NCBI RefSeq assembly: GCF_054482595.1
Contig: NZ_CM137008.1
Reading direction: 5' to 3' (one strand)
DNA length: 64,000 nt
In this document: piece after piece, positions 58,349 through 61,996 of the stretch
How positions within the stretch are numbered: position 1 is the stretch's first letter
Layout of the letters: each line of letters begins with the position of its first letter
Translations under genes and position numbers: made by a program
Notes under the pieces: model-generated
What the model was told of the DNA's origin: nothing
The model's database searches: none
The model's input: the letters and a program-made list of their open reading frames with translations, nothing else

Positions 58349-59659
58349 TCAATACAATTCAGATTCCAGTTTTCCGTTCCCTGCAATTTTATTTAGTCCG
58401 GGAGAGTTCAATCTCTCCAGACATAACGAAAACAGTTCAACACCTGTATCCAGCACATTTTCATCAAAATCAAAATCAACTTCGTGATGACCTGCTTTTA
58501 AATCACTGCCAAGTATTATATATGCAGCTTTTCCTCCTCTCTTCTGTACACGGCGAATAAGGATCGTTGCATCTTCACTGCCCCCAAATGATTTATCTGT
58601 CAAAGACATGTTCATATCTTCTTGTGCTATATAGTGTATCAGATTGACAAGTAAAGGGTCATTATGTAAATCCGTTGCTTCACCAACCACTTTGTACTCA
58701 AAACGTAAACCAAATATGGAAGAAATACCTTGTGCTATTTTTAGAGCATGTTCACGCATGTATTGATTTATTGTTTCCGTTTCTCCACGAACTTCAAGCT
58801 GCATCCTTGCAAAAGACGGGATTATGTTCCTTCCTTCACCTGCGTTTAGAGTGCCAATATTTATCCGGGACATACCTTCACCATGGCGTGGAATGGCAAG
58901 TAATTGCGTTGCACAGTGACAAGCTGCTGCCAGTGCATTATTTCCCAGGTGAGGATTTACACCAGCATGTGCCGGAGTACCATAGAAAAAGAAATCCATT
59001 TTTGTCGTACACAACAAATCTGTAGGTGAAGCGACAACATTTCCTGTAGGAACTCCCATACCAATATGTGCAGAAAGGAAGTAGTCGCAGTCATCAAGAA
59101 TACCACCTTCTGCAATAGGTTTTGCACCGCGAACGCCTTCTTCTGCAGCCTGAAAAATTAGCTTAATTTTCCCGCATAACTTATGGTTATTTTCAGATAC
59201 CCATTGTGCCAATCCTAAACCAATCGATATATGACCATCATGTCCACATGCATGCATTAAGCCAGAGTGTATGGATGCAAATCCCATTTTTTCAGGAATA
59301 TGATCTTTCGATTTTGATTCACTTACCTGTACACAATCAATGTCAAAACGAAACGCAGTGACAGCTCCATTTTTTCCTGTATCCCATAAAGCAACACACC
59401 CTGTAAAGCCATCCATTTCATCCAGCAATTCATGGGGAACGCCTGAATCAACTGCACGTTTTATACTATCTGCAACTTCAGTTGCATTACGGCCCATAAT
59501 ATATTCTATTGACAGGTATTTATTCCCCGTAATAACCTGCCATCCCATACCACGCAGAATAGTAATTATCTTTGACGTTGTGATAAATTCGCACCACCCA
59601 CTTTCCGGAATATGGTGAAATTCTCTCCGCCATTTTTGTAACTGATTCAGTTCAGACAT
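58349..59659 (-). CDS. Peptidase M20-family amidohydrolase (AbgA / hippurate-hydrolase-like)
   Basis: 436 aa with metal-binding motifs HACGHDGH and AEEG. Confidence 0.85.
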   Translation of the reverse strand: MSELNQLQKWRREFHHIPESGWCEFITTSKIITILRGMGWQVITGNKYLSIEYIMGRNATEVADSIKRAVDSGVPHELLDEMDGFTGCVALWDTGKNGAVTAFRFDIDCVQVSESKSKDHIPEKMGFASIHSGLMHACGHDGHISIGLGLAQWVSENNHKLCGKIKLIFQAAEEGVRGAKPIAEGGILDDCDYFLSAHIGMGVPTGNVVASPTDLLCTTKMDFFFYGTPAHAGVNPHLGNNALAAACHCATQLLAIPRHGEGMSRINIGTLNAGEGRNIIPSFARMQLEVRGETETINQYMREHALKIAQGISSIFGLRFEYKVVGEATDLHNDPLLVNLIHYIAQEDMNMSLTDKSFGGSEDATILIRRVQKRGGKAAYIILGSDLKAGHHEVDFDFDENVLDTGVELFSLCLERLNSPGLNKIAGNGKLESELY

Positions 59660-59671
59660 ATACGCCTCCTG

Positions 59672-60943
59672 TTAAAGGAATAATAATGCAATAAACAATA
59701 CCGTCACAATCATTCCGGGGGCAGTGCGTTTTGCAATTTCAACTGGATTAACTCCAGCCAGACCGGCACAGATAATAGTTGCACCAGCCAACGGAGACAT
59801 GTTTCTCCCCAGCGCAGAAGCCAGCATAACTGCAGCACCCAGAGTATTTGTATCGTAACCAAAATTGTTCGCATGTGGTGTGACAACTTCATTGAATGCG
59901 AATGCAGTCGCATCCCCTGTTCCGGTTATAAGTCCCATCAGGAATGGCCCCAATGTACCGCCCCAGCGGGCAAATTCTGGTGAGTCAATAAGAAATCTGA
60001 TAAACACATCAATGATACCAACAGATTTTAAACCTTCAATGAAAACAGCTGCGGCAATTATGATCCCAAGAATATTTGCATATGATGTCCCCATACCCTC
60101 AAAGAAGCTGGAAACTAATTCTTTGGGATTGGATTTACTGACAATCAGGGCATAAAGACAACCGAGAATCATTGCGGCTGGAACGGTTATTTTAGTCTCT
60201 CCAAGAAAACCAAATTCAGCCAGCATAAGTAATGCTATGGGAAGAAATGGTGCTACAGATTTCAGATAAAAACAGATACCACGGTCAGTGAACTCAACCT
60301 GTGTTTGTTCTGATATGTTTCCTGCAGAATCACATTTTGTTTCTTTTCTTACAATAGCAACAACTGTAAGAATAACAGCACATATTACACCACATGTTAT
60401 CGTAGTCGGAGTATGGAATACAACGAATTCCATTAATGGTGTTTGTGATATTTTAGATATAAATGCATTATGTGCAACACCGGGATTGAGGTAAGCACCT
60501 ATAGTTCCTGAAAGGATAGCTGCCCCGGCTATTGCAGGATGAATACGTGCTGAAATAAGTAATGGTATCAACGTTGCACCAACAGCAGCTGATGCGCCAG
60601 CAGCAGATGGAATCGCGATGCAAATAATAAAACTGACGGTAACCGCAGCAGGAATAAGAAAGATACCAAGACGAGATAATCCTTTCGTTAGAAAATGAAC
60701 CAGGCATGTATCACAACCAGTGAATTTCATAACACAGGCAAAGCCCATACTGGTACAAATAGCCTGAATAAGGCCGGACTCAGTCATTCTGCTTGCAAAT
60801 GCCGAAAATGCGTTTAAAGGTGACATGGCAACTATACATAGCAGAAGACCTGCACCAATTAGTGTCGTTCGTGTGTCGTATCTTTTTATCAAAAGCACAA
60901 CTGTGATTATCAGAATCACACATCCAGTTATCACGTTAAACAT
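59672..60943 (-). CDS. DcuC-family-like anion transporter
   Basis: Polytopic protein with C-terminal pattern GTGDATAFAFNEVVTPHANNFG...LGRNMSPLAGATIICAGLAGVNPVEIAKRT; ATG 60943 with GGAGGTG RBS. Confidence 0.7.
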   Translation of the reverse strand: MFNVITGCVILIITVVLLIKRYDTRTTLIGAGLLLCIVAMSPLNAFSAFASRMTESGLIQAICTSMGFACVMKFTGCDTCLVHFLTKGLSRLGIFLIPAAVTVSFIICIAIPSAAGASAAVGATLIPLLISARIHPAIAGAAILSGTIGAYLNPGVAHNAFISKISQTPLMEFVVFHTPTTITCGVICAVILTVVAIVRKETKCDSAGNISEQTQVEFTDRGICFYLKSVAPFLPIALLMLAEFGFLGETKITVPAAMILGCLYALIVSKSNPKELVSSFFEGMGTSYANILGIIIAAAVFIEGLKSVGIIDVFIRFLIDSPEFARWGGTLGPFLMGLITGTGDATAFAFNEVVTPHANNFGYDTNTLGAAVMLASALGRNMSPLAGATIICAGLAGVNPVEIAKRTAPGMIVTVLFIALLFL

Positions 60944-61078
60944 GAGATCCACCTCCTTCAAAGATAGATAATCTTTACTTTATGTGATTTGCTCAAATAT
61001 TGATCATGAACAAAAAAAACAATTAACCGGGGATACTATTATGATGGAGGTGATAACAGAAAATTATCAGGCGAAAAA

Positions 61079-61996
61079 ATGAAACATATGCCTAAACTTC
61101 AACAAATTAAATTTTTTAATGAAATAGTCCTGTGCGGAAGTTTAAGATCTGCCGCCCGTAAAATGAATATATCTCAGCCAGCATTAAGCAGAACGATAAA
61201 AGAATTGGAGAATGTATTAGGATGTAACCTTCTGATTCGAACAAGGGATGGTATCGTTTTAACAGAAGCTGGAAAGATATTCTCGGTCCATTCACGTATG
61301 ATTCTTGAAGAGGTTGAAACTGCAGCTCTTGAAGTTGCGAAAGTAAATATAGATAACACAGGGAAAGTAGCTTTTGGAATTTCTTCGCTGTTTGGCGTAA
61401 CAATACTGAATAATGTACTTGATAACTTCCGGATGAAATATCCGAAAACGCGTGTGATGATAAGAGAGGGACAGTTGTCTTCCCTTATCCCTTACCTGAG
61501 AGAAGGTGTTCTGGATTTTGCAATGGGTACATTAACAAAAGACATGCCAGTTGGAGATTTTATTGCGGTTGAATTGTTTAACGCACCGTTCACTATAGTG
61601 GCAAGAAAACACCATCCTTTAAGGAACTGTACATCAATTGATGAACTTGCAACTGCAAGATGGGTATTCCCGGAAACTCAAATGGGATACTATCATTATA
61701 TATCCCGTCTTATTCCCTTTGGACATCCTGATGAACCATATGCTCCAATATTTACCGATTCGGTAGTTTGTATTATGAATCTTGTTCTCTATGATGACTA
61801 TATAACGGTTCTCTCCAGAGCAAGGTTACAGGAAGCAAGATTCAAAGAAATATTGTGTTCAATTCCTGTTAAGTATCAACTACCCGTTAGCCAGTACGGG
61901 CTTATTTATCCACGAAAAAGGTTAATGACGGCACCAGCACAAATAATGATTGAATATTTTCAACAAGAGATACAACGATATGACTGGAATGGATGA
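61079..61996 (+). CDS. LysR-family transcriptional regulator
   Basis: N-terminal HTH (LRSAARKMNISQPALSRTIKELE) and LysR substrate-binding domain; divergent from the transporter-hydrolase pair. Confidence 0.85.
   Translation: MKHMPKLQQIKFFNEIVLCGSLRSAARKMNISQPALSRTIKELENVLGCNLLIRTRDGIVLTEAGKIFSVHSRMILEEVETAALEVAKVNIDNTGKVAFGISSLFGVTILNNVLDNFRMKYPKTRVMIREGQLSSLIPYLREGVLDFAMGTLTKDMPVGDFIAVELFNAPFTIVARKHHPLRNCTSIDELATARWVFPETQMGYYHYISRLIPFGHPDEPYAPIFTDSVVCIMNLVLYDDYITVLSRARLQEARFKEILCSIPVKYQLPVSQYGLIYPRKRLMTAPAQIMIEYFQQEIQRYDWNG

What the first reader, a model, noticed from the sequence alone, without database searches (positions are those of the whole stretch)
58349..61996. Low-GC LysR / DcuC-like transporter / M20 hydrolase module
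The divergent regulator with a transporter-amidohydrolase operon resembles abgR-abgAB-abgT-type layouts but pairs the hydrolase with a DcuC-family-like carrier rather than AbgT. The codon usage looks AT-rich and foreign. The substrate (N-acyl amino acid or dipeptide-like) is unknown.
Basis: inference. Interest (0 to 1): 0.35.

Follow-up and report, generated by a model that had tools for sequence, protein, structure and literature searches.

The report
IS-flanked AbgA-like hydrolase/carrier operon
A rare, horizontally acquired three-gene unit in E. coli (regulator, membrane carrier, amide-cleaving enzyme) that probably imports and splits a small acidic amide such as an N-acyl or peptidyl Asp/Glu; it is real and intact, but it belongs to a widespread, already-annotated, never-tested gene pair, so it is only modestly unusual.

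Summary
Window 58349-61996 holds three intact genes:
- an AbgA-like M20D amidohydrolase (58349-59659, minus strand);
- a DcuC-family carrier (59672-60943, minus strand; true start ATG 60943, not TTG 60961);
- a divergent LysR regulator (61079-61996, plus strand).

GC3 is 0.28-0.30, against 0.45-0.69 for nearly all other long ORFs in the window. The unit sits between two different, degenerate IS66-family elements. Only 14 of 5,426 complete E. coli genomes carry it, in at least three chromosomal contexts. The canonical abg operon is in 5,402 of them.

It is not the abg operon. The hydrolase is 42% identical to AbgA, there is no AbgB partner, and the carrier is unrelated in sequence to AbgT, although both have the elevator-type Ion Transporter superfamily fold.

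The carrier-then-hydrolase pair is conserved in 60 of 74 informative loci. These come from Enterobacterales, Pasteurellaceae (H. influenzae HI0584-HI0586), Sutterellaceae and others, often directly after dipeptidase gene pepE. Two E. coli alleles give dN/dS of 0.07-0.14, and conserved dyads mark the LysR control region.

The most likely function is inducible uptake and cleavage of an anionic amide; the substrate is untested. Verdict: a genuine, ordinary-to-moderately interesting orphan catabolic module.

The parts
58263..58301 (-). Terminator-like hairpin (12-bp stem) 48-86 nt downstream of the hydrolase stop. It lies inside the conserved module core.
   Evidence: RNA fold gives -18.1 kcal/mol with z = -2.98 against shuffles. 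The U-tract is weak, and the consensus terminator scan did not call it. Homology with the diverged E7-1N7 allele begins at 58257.
58349..59659 (-). AbgA-like M20D metallo-amidohydrolase, 436 aa, second gene of the operon.
   Evidence: Family scores: TIGR01891 261 bits against cutoff 153.75; Pfam M20 plus M20_dimer. It is 42% identical to E. coli AbgA over the full length. The metal and catalytic residues C138, H140, E173, E174, H198, H391 and H392 are invariant across the clade. AGGAGG lies 6 nt before the ATG. dN/dS is 0.114.
59672..60943 (-). DcuC-family (Ion Transporter superfamily) secondary carrier, 423 aa, first gene of the operon. A 12-nt gap separates it from the hydrolase gene.
   Evidence: Family scores: Pfam DcuC 90.2 bits; NF037994 443.8 bits. 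It scores only 100.7 bits against the E. coli DcuC equivalog, whose cutoff is 513. The AF2 model has pLDDT 82.5. Foldseek TM-scores are 0.70 to TRAP SiaQM, about 0.62 to VcINDY, and 0.63-0.66 to the AbgT-family YdaH/MtrF. dN/dS is 0.141.
60944..61078 (.). 135-bp divergent control region. Dyad 1, TGATAA-N7-TTATCA, is at 61051-61069. Conserved block 2, TTTTG..ATCAATA, is at 60998-61015. An E. coli-only dyad is at 60960-60976.
   Evidence: An alignment of 7 orthologous intergenic regions shows a dyad at the same position in all of them. Plesiomonas has CTATCA-N7-TGATAG there. The second block is also conserved. No consensus sigma-70 promoter was called inside this region.
61079..61996 (+). LysR-type transcriptional regulator, 305 aa, of the TdcA/AbgR-like subgroup.
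   Evidence: Pfam HTH_1 plus LysR_substrate. TdcA model 233.7 bits against cutoff 308; PRK09791 200.7 bits against cutoff 336. It is 31% identical to AbgR. Orthologs at 55-57% identity sit in the same divergent position in Edwardsiella and Serratia, Salmonella and Plesiomonas. dN/dS is 0.065.
56404..58089 (-). Left IS66-family remnant: tnpA 57569-58006, tnpB 57222-57572, truncated tnpC 56496-57191. Its tnpA-proximal end faces the module.
   Evidence: ORFs; RefSeq annotation of identical DNA; tnpA matches HTH_Tnp_1. The terminal sequence TGTAAACGTAAAGCC (minus strand) ends near 58089. This segment is shared between contexts L001 and L002.
62008..64000 (+). Right IS66-family remnant of a different IS66 member: tnpA 62104-62433, tnpB partial, tnpC frameshifted. 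It also faces outward from the module and runs to the window end.
   Evidence: RefSeq annotation. Homology with the diverged allele stops at 62007. The two IS remnants share only a 66-nt stretch at 73% complementarity.

Best explanation
This is a horizontally acquired, LysR-controlled 'import-and-cleave' operon.

Proposed steps:
1. The LysR protein binds conserved dyads in the 135-bp divergent region. On sensing the substrate or a product, it activates the two-gene operon.
2. The DcuC-family elevator-type secondary carrier imports an anionic, carboxylate-bearing amide. The most likely class is an N-acyl or peptidyl acidic amino acid (X-Asp/X-Glu type, of which PABA-Glu is one example).
3. The cytoplasmic AbgA-like M20D metallo-amidohydrolase cleaves the amide bond and releases the amino acid for nitrogen, carbon or aspartate-to-fumarate metabolism. 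It acts without an AbgB partner, probably as a homodimer.

In E. coli the unit is an add-on to the resident abg operon. It is carried in an IS66-rich mosaic island.

Shown: gene identities, integrity, operon structure, conserved pairing, purifying selection, foreign origin.
Inferred: import direction, substrate class, inducer, oligomeric state.
For: Operon anatomy:
- The gap is 12 nt, with AGGAGG before the hydrolase ATG and AAGGAGGTG before the carrier ATG.
- A hairpin follows the hydrolase stop.

Conserved coupling:
- In 60 of 74 informative loci from named species, a hydrolase homolog (46-59% identity) is the next gene on the same strand. The median gap is 19.5 nt.
- The taxonomic distributions and contig sizes of the two proteins' homologs coincide.

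Enzyme competence:
- All M20D metal and catalytic residues are invariant.
- The nearest characterised relative, AbgA, belongs to an enzyme that releases Glu from an N-acyl-Glu (PMC5082436).

Carrier:
- It has the elevator fold shared with TRAP-DctM, DASS and AbgT carriers, all of which move carboxylate-type anions.

Substrate hint:
- Dipeptidase PepE (329 bits, cutoff 156) lies immediately upstream on the same strand in 29 of 75 loci.
- A carbamoylase-family M20 enzyme lies nearby in 20 loci.

Regulation:
- The same divergent LysR occurs in Edwardsiella, Serratia, Salmonella and Plesiomonas.
- A dyad is conserved in position in all 7 intergenic regions aligned.

Functionality:
- dN/dS is 0.114, 0.141 and 0.065 between two E. 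coli alleles that are about 10% diverged.

Foreign origin:
- GC3 is 0.28-0.30, the flanks are IS66 elements, and 14 of 5,426 genomes carry it in at least 3 contexts.
Against: - No experimental data exist for any member. Literature searches found only transcript profiling of HI0584.
- The characterised AbgAB enzyme failed to cleave the range of dipeptides tested (PMC5082436). A dipeptide substrate is therefore not implied by homology.
- The PepE linkage is seen in Pasteurellaceae and Campylobacter, not in the LysR-bearing enterobacterial subclade to which this copy belongs.
- No consensus sigma-70 promoter was found in the intergenic region. That fits an activator-dependent promoter but is not positive evidence.
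- The direction of transport is inferred only from the pairing with a cytoplasmic hydrolase.
- AT-rich foreign DNA in E. coli is often silenced (own knowledge), so the module may rarely be expressed.
Confidence: 0.6

Rival explanations
1. It is a second p-aminobenzoyl-glutamate (folate catabolite) salvage system, functionally equivalent to abgABT. The DcuC-type carrier would replace AbgT, and the AbgA-like enzyme would work alone or with the host's AbgB.
For: - The hydrolase's closest characterised relative is AbgA (42% identity, same length).
- The regulator is AbgR-like (31% identity).
- The layout mirrors abgR and abgA.
- The host species almost always carries abgB elsewhere in the genome.
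Against: - The canonical enzyme is an obligate AbgA-AbgB alpha2beta2 tetramer (PMC5082436).
- No AbgB homolog accompanies the pair in any of 80 loci. Many of those hosts, such as Pasteurellaceae and Sutterellaceae, carry the pair next to pepE instead.
- 42% identity is paralog-level.
- A redundant system in a species that already has abg in 5,402 of 5,426 genomes offers little advantage.
Confidence: 0.1
2. The carrier is a genuine C4-dicarboxylate (succinate/fumarate) transporter, as RefSeq annotates it ('DcuC'), and the neighbouring hydrolase is functionally unrelated.
For: - PGAP names it dcuC through NF037994.
- Pfam DcuC family membership.
- The fold is shared with dicarboxylate carriers such as VcINDY.
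- H. influenzae HI0584 is co-regulated with aspartate and fumarate pathway genes (PMC2627913).
Against: - It scores only 100.7 bits on the E. coli DcuC equivalog model, whose cutoff is 513.
- Tight operonic coupling to the hydrolase across several bacterial families (60 of 74 loci, median gap 19.5 nt) is hard to explain if the two are unrelated.
- The Pfam DcuC family is broad.
Confidence: 0.08
3. The pair is a detoxification or efflux device. The hydrolase would inactivate a toxic amide (an antimetabolite or peptide-like toxin), and the carrier would export the product. This would parallel AbgT-family MtrF and YdaH, which are described as antimetabolite efflux pumps.
For: - The carrier shares the fold of YdaH and MtrF (TM-score 0.63-0.66). 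Their PDB entry titles describe antimetabolite efflux pumps.
- The module lies in a pathogenicity-island-like mosaic.
Against: - The association with pepE and a carbamoylase-type amidase in many genomes points to nutrient peptide or amide catabolism.
- The carrier is the first gene of the operon and is under a catabolic-type LysR regulator (TdcA/AbgR-like).
- No resistance context was seen.
Confidence: 0.07
4. In E. coli the module is silent passenger DNA trapped between IS66 remnants. It has no current function in this host.
For: - It is embedded in degenerate IS elements.
- It is very rare: 14 of 5,426 genomes.
- It is AT-rich.
- In strain E7-1N7 an IS sits exactly between the operator dyad and the lysR start codon.
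Against: - All three ORFs are intact in all 14 genomes, and 10 of these are 100% identical.
- dN/dS is 0.07-0.14 between the two alleles. That selection may, however, have acted mostly in donor lineages.
- Ribosome-binding sites and operator dyads are preserved.
Confidence: 0.12

Closest known systems
E. coli abgR-abgABT (p-aminobenzoyl-glutamate uptake and hydrolysis)
   Same: - A divergent LysR regulator faces an operon that combines an AbgA-type M20D hydrolase with an Ion Transporter-superfamily secondary carrier.
- The hydrolase is 42% identical to AbgA and the same length.
- The regulator is 31% identical to AbgR.
   Different: - There is no AbgB subunit.
- The carrier is DcuC-family, not AbgT-family.
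- Gene order is carrier first, then hydrolase.
- It is foreign, IS-flanked and rare (14 genomes), whereas abg is near-universal (5,402 genomes).
Haemophilus influenzae HI0584-HI0587 cluster (pepE, DcuC-like HI0585/HI0586, peptidase HI0584) and its orthologs in Pasteurellaceae
   Same: - It has the same carrier-then-hydrolase pair, at 49-54% identity.
- It is likewise uncharacterised. HI0584 is known only from iron/heme and in-vivo transcript profiling (PMC3879429, PMC2627913, PMC3877243).
   Different: - The Pasteurellaceae version is preceded by pepE, often has a carbamoylase-type M20 gene nearby, and has no adjacent orthologous LysR.
- It is chromosomal core DNA there rather than IS-borne.
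E. coli DcuC / DcuD anaerobic C4-dicarboxylate carriers
   Same: Same Pfam family, PF03606, and the same predicted elevator-type fold class.
   Different: - It is far below the equivalog thresholds: 100.7 against 513 bits, and 66.5 against 623 bits.
- It is operonically tied to an amidohydrolase. DcuC is a stand-alone gene in E. coli (own knowledge).
M20D aminoacylases and dipeptidases (YxeP 1ysj, S. aureus M20 peptidase 4ewt, ILL2 1xmb, N-acyl-glutamine aminoacylase 6slf, HmrA 3ram)
   Same: - Same TIGR01891 subfamily.
- Same two-domain architecture of a catalytic domain plus a dimerisation lid.
   Different: - They are much more distant than AbgA: 51-99 bits against 369 bits for the AbgA ortholog 3io1.
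- Their substrates therefore cannot be transferred to this enzyme.

Membership tests
Canonical Abg system (abgR-abgABT) | AbgA-type M20D hydrolase subunit | tested here: met
   The protein is 42% identical to AbgA over 433 of 436 aa (E = 5e-107). This is homology at paralog level, not demonstrated orthology.
Canonical Abg system (abgR-abgABT) | AbgB partner subunit forming the obligate alpha2beta2 enzyme (PMC5082436) | tested here: not met
   The module holds only one hydrolase gene. AbgB aligns only weakly (26% over 186 aa) onto that same gene. No separate AbgB homolog occurs in the window or in the 80 related loci.
Canonical Abg system (abgR-abgABT) | AbgT-family transporter | tested here: not met
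   BLASTP against AbgT gives E = 0.07. The Pfam hits are DcuC and DctM, not AbgT. No AbgT homolog lies adjacent in any related locus.
Canonical Abg system (abgR-abgABT) | Divergent AbgR regulator | tested here: inconclusive
   The divergent layout is the same. Identity to AbgR is 31%. The PRK09791 model scores 200.7 bits, below its cutoff of 336.
Canonical Abg system (abgR-abgABT) | PABA-Glu uptake and cleavage activity | not testable with these tools
   This needs a pabA-auxotroph growth test and an enzyme assay.
Peptidase M20D / TIGR01891 amidohydrolases | Family HMM above the curated cutoff, plus the dimerisation domain | tested here: met
   TIGR01891 scores 261 bits against 153.75. PF01546 scores 95.7 bits and PF07687 scores 35.8 bits.
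Peptidase M20D / TIGR01891 amidohydrolases | Conserved metal-binding and catalytic residues (Cys/His motif, Glu-Glu, His, C-terminal His) | tested here: met
   HAC138GH140D, E173, E174, H198, H391 and H392 are invariant in a 13-sequence alignment that includes AbgA.
DcuC family (PF03606) | Family HMM above the gathering score | tested here: met
   PF03606 scores 90.2 bits against 23.1. NF037994 scores 443.8 bits against 100, and TIGR00771 scores 210.6 bits against 187.
DcuC family (PF03606) | Orthology to the characterised E. coli DcuC (equivalog model) | tested here: not met
   PRK10654 scores 100.7 bits against cutoff 513. PRK09804 scores 66.5 bits against cutoff 623.
DcuC family (PF03606) | Elevator-type Ion Transporter superfamily fold | tested here: met
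   The AF2 model has pLDDT 82.5 and pTM 0.83. Foldseek TM-scores are 0.70 to SiaQM, about 0.62 to VcINDY, and 0.63-0.66 to YdaH/MtrF.
DcuC family (PF03606) | C4-dicarboxylate transport activity | not testable with these tools
   This requires transport assays.
LysR-type transcriptional regulators | N-terminal HTH_1 domain plus LysR substrate-binding domain | tested here: met
   PF00126 scores 69.4 bits and PF03466 scores 82.4 bits.
LysR-type transcriptional regulators | Divergent target promoter carrying a T-N11-A-type dyad | tested here: met
   TGATAA-N7-TTATCA lies at 61051-61069. A dyad at this position is conserved in 7 orthologous intergenic regions. Binding itself was not tested.
LysR-type transcriptional regulators | Equivalog of TdcA | tested here: not met
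   NF007667 scores 233.7 bits, below its cutoff of 308.
Conserved DcuC_1 / AbgA-like gene pair (HI0584-HI0586 type) | Carrier immediately upstream of the hydrolase, same strand, short gap | tested here: met
   The gap in the window is 12 nt. The same arrangement holds in 60 of 74 loci, with a median gap of 19.5 nt.
IS66 composite transposon | Two copies of the same IS bracketing the cargo | tested here: not met
   The two flanking elements are different IS66-family members, and both are degenerate. Their only similarity is 66 nt at 73%. Flank types differ again in strain E7-1N7.
IS66 composite transposon | Target-site duplication at the outer ends | not tested
   The outer IS ends are truncated (left) or lie beyond the window (right).

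The most novel reading that the evidence does not exclude
The DcuC_1/AbgA-like pair defines an unrecognised uptake route for acidic dipeptides or N-acyl-Asp/Glu. This route would use an elevator-type carrier rather than the known peptide transporters (POT/Dtp, Opp/Dpp). It would feed aspartate or glutamate into fumarate respiration in host-associated bacteria such as Pasteurellaceae, Sutterellaceae, Proteus/Providencia and Edwardsiella. The IS66-borne E. coli copy would then be a niche-adaptive acquisition within a pathogenicity-island-like region.
Probability: 0.25. Interest if true: 0.5.

Novelty: new variant of a known kind. Interest (0 to 1): 0.3.

Why it matters
If the proposed function is right, the module would assign a first substrate class to a gene pair found across many host-associated Proteobacteria. 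One member, H. influenzae HI0584, is induced in vivo. It would also show that a DcuC-family carrier, routinely auto-annotated as a 'C4-dicarboxylate transporter', moves amide-linked substrates. That would correct a widespread annotation.

For E. coli biology the module is a small example of IS66-mediated capture of a metabolic cassette into a capsule- and adhesin-bearing mosaic island. It is not a new mechanism. The value is in de-orphaning a family and fixing an over-annotation, not in a conceptual surprise.

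Tried and rejected
1. Canonical abg operon: rejected. 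There is no AbgB and no AbgT, and the resident abg operon is present elsewhere in nearly all E. coli genomes.

2. Literature search for any functional study of the pair. Terms tried: DcuC+amidohydrolase+LysR, abgA+DcuC, pepE+abgA+Haemophilus, HI0584-HI0588, DcuC+pepE, DcuC family+M20, and aminobenzoyl-glutamate utilization protein+C4-dicarboxylate+dipeptide. Only transcript tables and bioinformatic annotation turned up.

3. Sequence search of the carrier against solved structures: nothing meaningful. I therefore used an AF2 model and Foldseek instead.

4. Classical composite transposon: rejected, because the two IS66 remnants are different elements.

5. Plasmid-borne spread in E. coli: no close plasmid match. 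The only hits were 67%-identity homologs on Plesiomonas megaplasmids and distant Proteus/Providencia hits.

6. Donor identification by composition: inconclusive.
- The closest relatives by sequence are Plesiomonas-like at 70%, and Edwardsiella, Serratia and Salmonella at 58-70%. Their GC3 is 0.36-0.82.
- Lineages that match in GC3 (Proteus, Pasteurella) are only 51-59% identical.

7. Consensus promoter and terminator scan: no site in the intergenic region, and overall counts were below the shuffle expectation.

8. A 13-codon upstream ORF (61041-61082) overlaps the lysR ATG (read from the sequence). I noted it but did not pursue it; it may be chance.

Full report
**1. Observation**

- 58349-59659 (-) encodes a 436-aa M20 metallo-amidohydrolase. 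It matches Pfam Peptidase_M20 plus M20_dimer, and TIGR01891 at 261 bits against a cutoff of 153.75.
- 59672-60961 (-) encodes a DcuC-family carrier. It matches PF03606 at 90.2 bits and NF037994 'DcuC_1' at 443.8 bits.
- 61079-61996 (+) encodes a LysR-type regulator with HTH_1 and LysR_substrate domains.

The carrier's real start is ATG 60943 (423 aa, as in RefSeq). It is preceded by AAGGAGGTG, and the TTG at 60961 lies inside that ribosome-binding site.

The carrier's stop codon is followed by CAGGAGGCGTAT and then the hydrolase ATG. That is a 12-nt gap with its own Shine-Dalgarno sequence. A 12-bp-stem hairpin follows the hydrolase stop (-18.1 kcal/mol, z = -2.98). The two minus-strand genes therefore form a compact operon, divergent from lysR across 135 bp.

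**2. Foreignness**

- The module is 0.398 GC, against 0.514 for the rest of the window.
- GC3 of the three genes is 0.28-0.30. Every other long ORF but one is 0.45-0.69.
- Only 14 of 5,426 complete E. coli genomes carry it. Ten are 100% identical, two are 99.6%, one is 98.1% and one is 89.6%.
- The canonical abg operon matches in 5,402 genomes.

The module is bracketed by two outward-facing, degenerate IS66-family elements of different types. It occurs in at least three chromosomal contexts:
- the window/SCEC020001 type, upstream of sgc/yjh genes;
- strain 32-4, between ykgR and cadB;
- strain E7-1N7, next to the hpa operon.

Window 56404-64000, comprising both IS remnants and the module, is shared as a block between the first two contexts. 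The diverged E7-1N7 allele shares only the core 58257-62007, and it has an IS inserted between the operator region and lysR. Strains related to the window's host share the island only up to 57648 and lack the module.

No donor could be named:
- The closest relatives by sequence are a Plesiomonas-like contig at 70%, and Edwardsiella, Serratia and Salmonella at 58-70%. Their GC3 is much higher.
- Lineages with matching GC3 are only 51-59% identical.

**3. Relation to abg**

I compared each protein with the K-12 Abg proteins.

- The hydrolase is 42% identical to AbgA over the full length, and both are 436 aa. It shows only 26% identity over 186 aa to AbgB.
- The regulator is 31% identical to AbgR.
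- The carrier has no significant similarity to AbgT (E = 0.07).
- The best solved structure, 3io1, is evidently the Klebsiella AbgA ortholog.

Canonical PABA-Glu hydrolase is an obligate Mn2+-dependent AbgA-AbgB alpha2beta2 enzyme, and AbgT is the importer (PMC5082436). The module lacks both AbgB and AbgT, so it is abg-like in design but is not the abg system.

An AlphaFold model of the carrier (pLDDT 82.5, pTM 0.83) was searched against solved structures. The best matches were:
- TRAP SiaQM, TM-score 0.70;
- VcINDY/DASS carriers, about 0.62;
- the AbgT-family YdaH and MtrF, 0.63-0.66.

DcuC-type and AbgT-type carriers therefore share the elevator-type Ion Transporter superfamily fold, and all the matched carriers move carboxylate-type anions. 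The RefSeq name 'dcuC' is probably an over-annotation. The protein scores only 100.7 bits on the E. coli DcuC equivalog model, whose cutoff is 513.

**4. The pair is widespread and conserved**

A scan of species-representative genomes with a carrier alignment returned 80 loci. The taxa were Edwardsiella, Serratia, Entomohabitans, Proteus, Providencia, Budviciaceae, many Pasteurellaceae, Sutterellaceae and a Campylobacter.

- In 60 of 74 loci with enough downstream sequence, the next gene on the same strand is a hydrolase homolog at 46-59% identity. The median gap is 19.5 nt.
- Dipeptidase PepE (NF003642, 329 bits against cutoff 156) lies immediately upstream on the same strand in 29 of 75 loci.
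- A carbamoylase/allantoate-amidohydrolase-family M20 enzyme lies nearby in 20 loci.
- No AbgB or AbgT homolog accompanies any locus.

In H. influenzae Rd the cluster is HI0584 (peptidase), HI0585/HI0586 (a split carrier) and pepE. HI0584 appears in iron/heme-modulon and in-vivo transcript tables but has not been functionally studied (PMC3879429, PMC2627913, PMC3877243, PMC3928620).

The divergent LysR ortholog (55-57% identity) is confined to an enterobacterial subclade: Edwardsiella, Serratia, Salmonella, Plesiomonas megaplasmids and E. coli. In Salmonella the module also sits in accessory DNA.

**5. Functionality**

- The M20D metal and catalytic residues (HAC138GH140D, E173, E174, H198, H391, H392) are invariant across the clade and AbgA.
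- Between the window allele and the roughly 10%-diverged E7-1N7 allele, dN/dS is 0.114 for the hydrolase, 0.141 for the carrier and 0.065 for lysR. Neither allele has internal stops.
- An alignment of seven orthologous control regions shows a dyad at a fixed position next to lysR. It is TGATAA-N7-TTATCA in both E. coli alleles, even though their spacers differ, and CTATCA-N7-TGATAG in Plesiomonas.
- A second conserved block, TTTTG..ATCAAxA, lies about 55 nt away. These are candidate LysR operators.
- The consensus scan found no sigma-70 promoter in the region. That is compatible with activator dependence but is not evidence for it.

**6. Mechanism**

The best-supported reading (confidence 0.6) is an inducible import-and-cleave operon:
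1. LysR senses the substrate or a product and activates the operon.
2. The elevator-type carrier imports an anionic amide.
3. The solo AbgA-like M20D enzyme releases an amino acid.

The substrate class is an inference: an N-acyl or peptidyl acidic amino acid. It rests on the AbgA relationship (cleavage of an N-acyl-Glu), the carboxylate-handling fold of the carrier, and the recurrent pepE and carbamoylase neighbours.

Two caveats apply. AbgAB did not cleave the dipeptides tested. The pepE linkage is absent from the LysR-bearing subclade.

Rivals, with my confidence in each:
- a second PABA-Glu salvage system (0.10);
- a true C4-dicarboxylate carrier with an unrelated neighbouring hydrolase (0.08);
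- a detoxification or efflux device (0.07);
- silent passenger DNA in E. coli (0.12).

**7. Verdict**

The module is a variant of the abg design, with a carrier from a different family of the same superfamily and a single hydrolase subunit. It belongs to a widespread, database-annotated but experimentally orphan gene pair.

It would not greatly surprise a specialist. It does offer a tractable route to de-orphan that pair and to correct the 'DcuC' annotation. Interest is 0.3.

Noticed in passing
window 61041-61082: A 13-codon mini-ORF (MMEVITENYQAKK*) has a stop codon that overlaps the lysR start (ATGA). It also spans the operator dyad 61051-61069. It could be a leader peptide or chance.
   Followed up: no
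L003 14803-15761 (strain E7-1N7): In the diverged allele, a degenerate DDE-type IS is inserted in the 8 bp between the conserved operator dyad and the lysR ATG. The insertion separates lysR from its native control region, yet all three ORFs remain intact.
   Followed up: partly
window 20529-21647 (-): A 372-aa hypothetical protein with very low GC (0.30; GC3 0.29) and no Pfam match. It sits next to a GNAT acetyltransferase and a DUF2971 protein, and is a second strongly foreign islet in the window.
   Followed up: partly
window 54163-56076 (+): A 637-aa protein with a signal-peptide-like N-terminus lies downstream of malX and a MalY/PatB-like gene. RefSeq annotates identical DNA inconsistently as 'enterotoxin', 'alpha-galactosidase' or 'hypothetical protein'. 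It has no Pfam hit.
   Followed up: partly
window ~38892-46746: An island-borne second citrate-lyase cluster (citCDEFXG) is followed by an acnB paralog. A GntR regulator, an amidohydrolase-family protein and an MFS transporter precede it. This may be a tricarboxylate catabolic cassette.
   Followed up: no
window 1-18850: This stretch holds group-2 capsule region-1 genes (kpsF/E/D, kdsB, kpsC/S-like) and then a CP4-like remnant. The remnant carries the cbtA/cbeA toxin-antitoxin pair, an antirestriction gene, a radC-like gene and an Ag43 autotransporter. The whole window is a pathogenicity-island-like mosaic.
   Followed up: no
L088 2029-5041 (Sutterella MAG); L060 (H. influenzae HI-5290): One Sutterella locus carries two tandem hydrolase paralogs after the carrier, at 40% and 53% identity to the window enzyme. 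In the H. influenzae locus the hydrolase region has a tblastn match but yielded no intact ORF call. In strain Rd the carrier is split into HI0585 and HI0586. Together these suggest decay of the cluster in some Haemophilus strains.
   Followed up: partly
L017, L018, L021, L022, L027 (Proteus spp.): In Proteus the pair lies directly downstream of a large (about 1,306-aa) protein and a gltD/AegA-like glutamate-synthase small-subunit homolog. This may be a link to glutamate metabolism or simply a coincidence.
   Followed up: no
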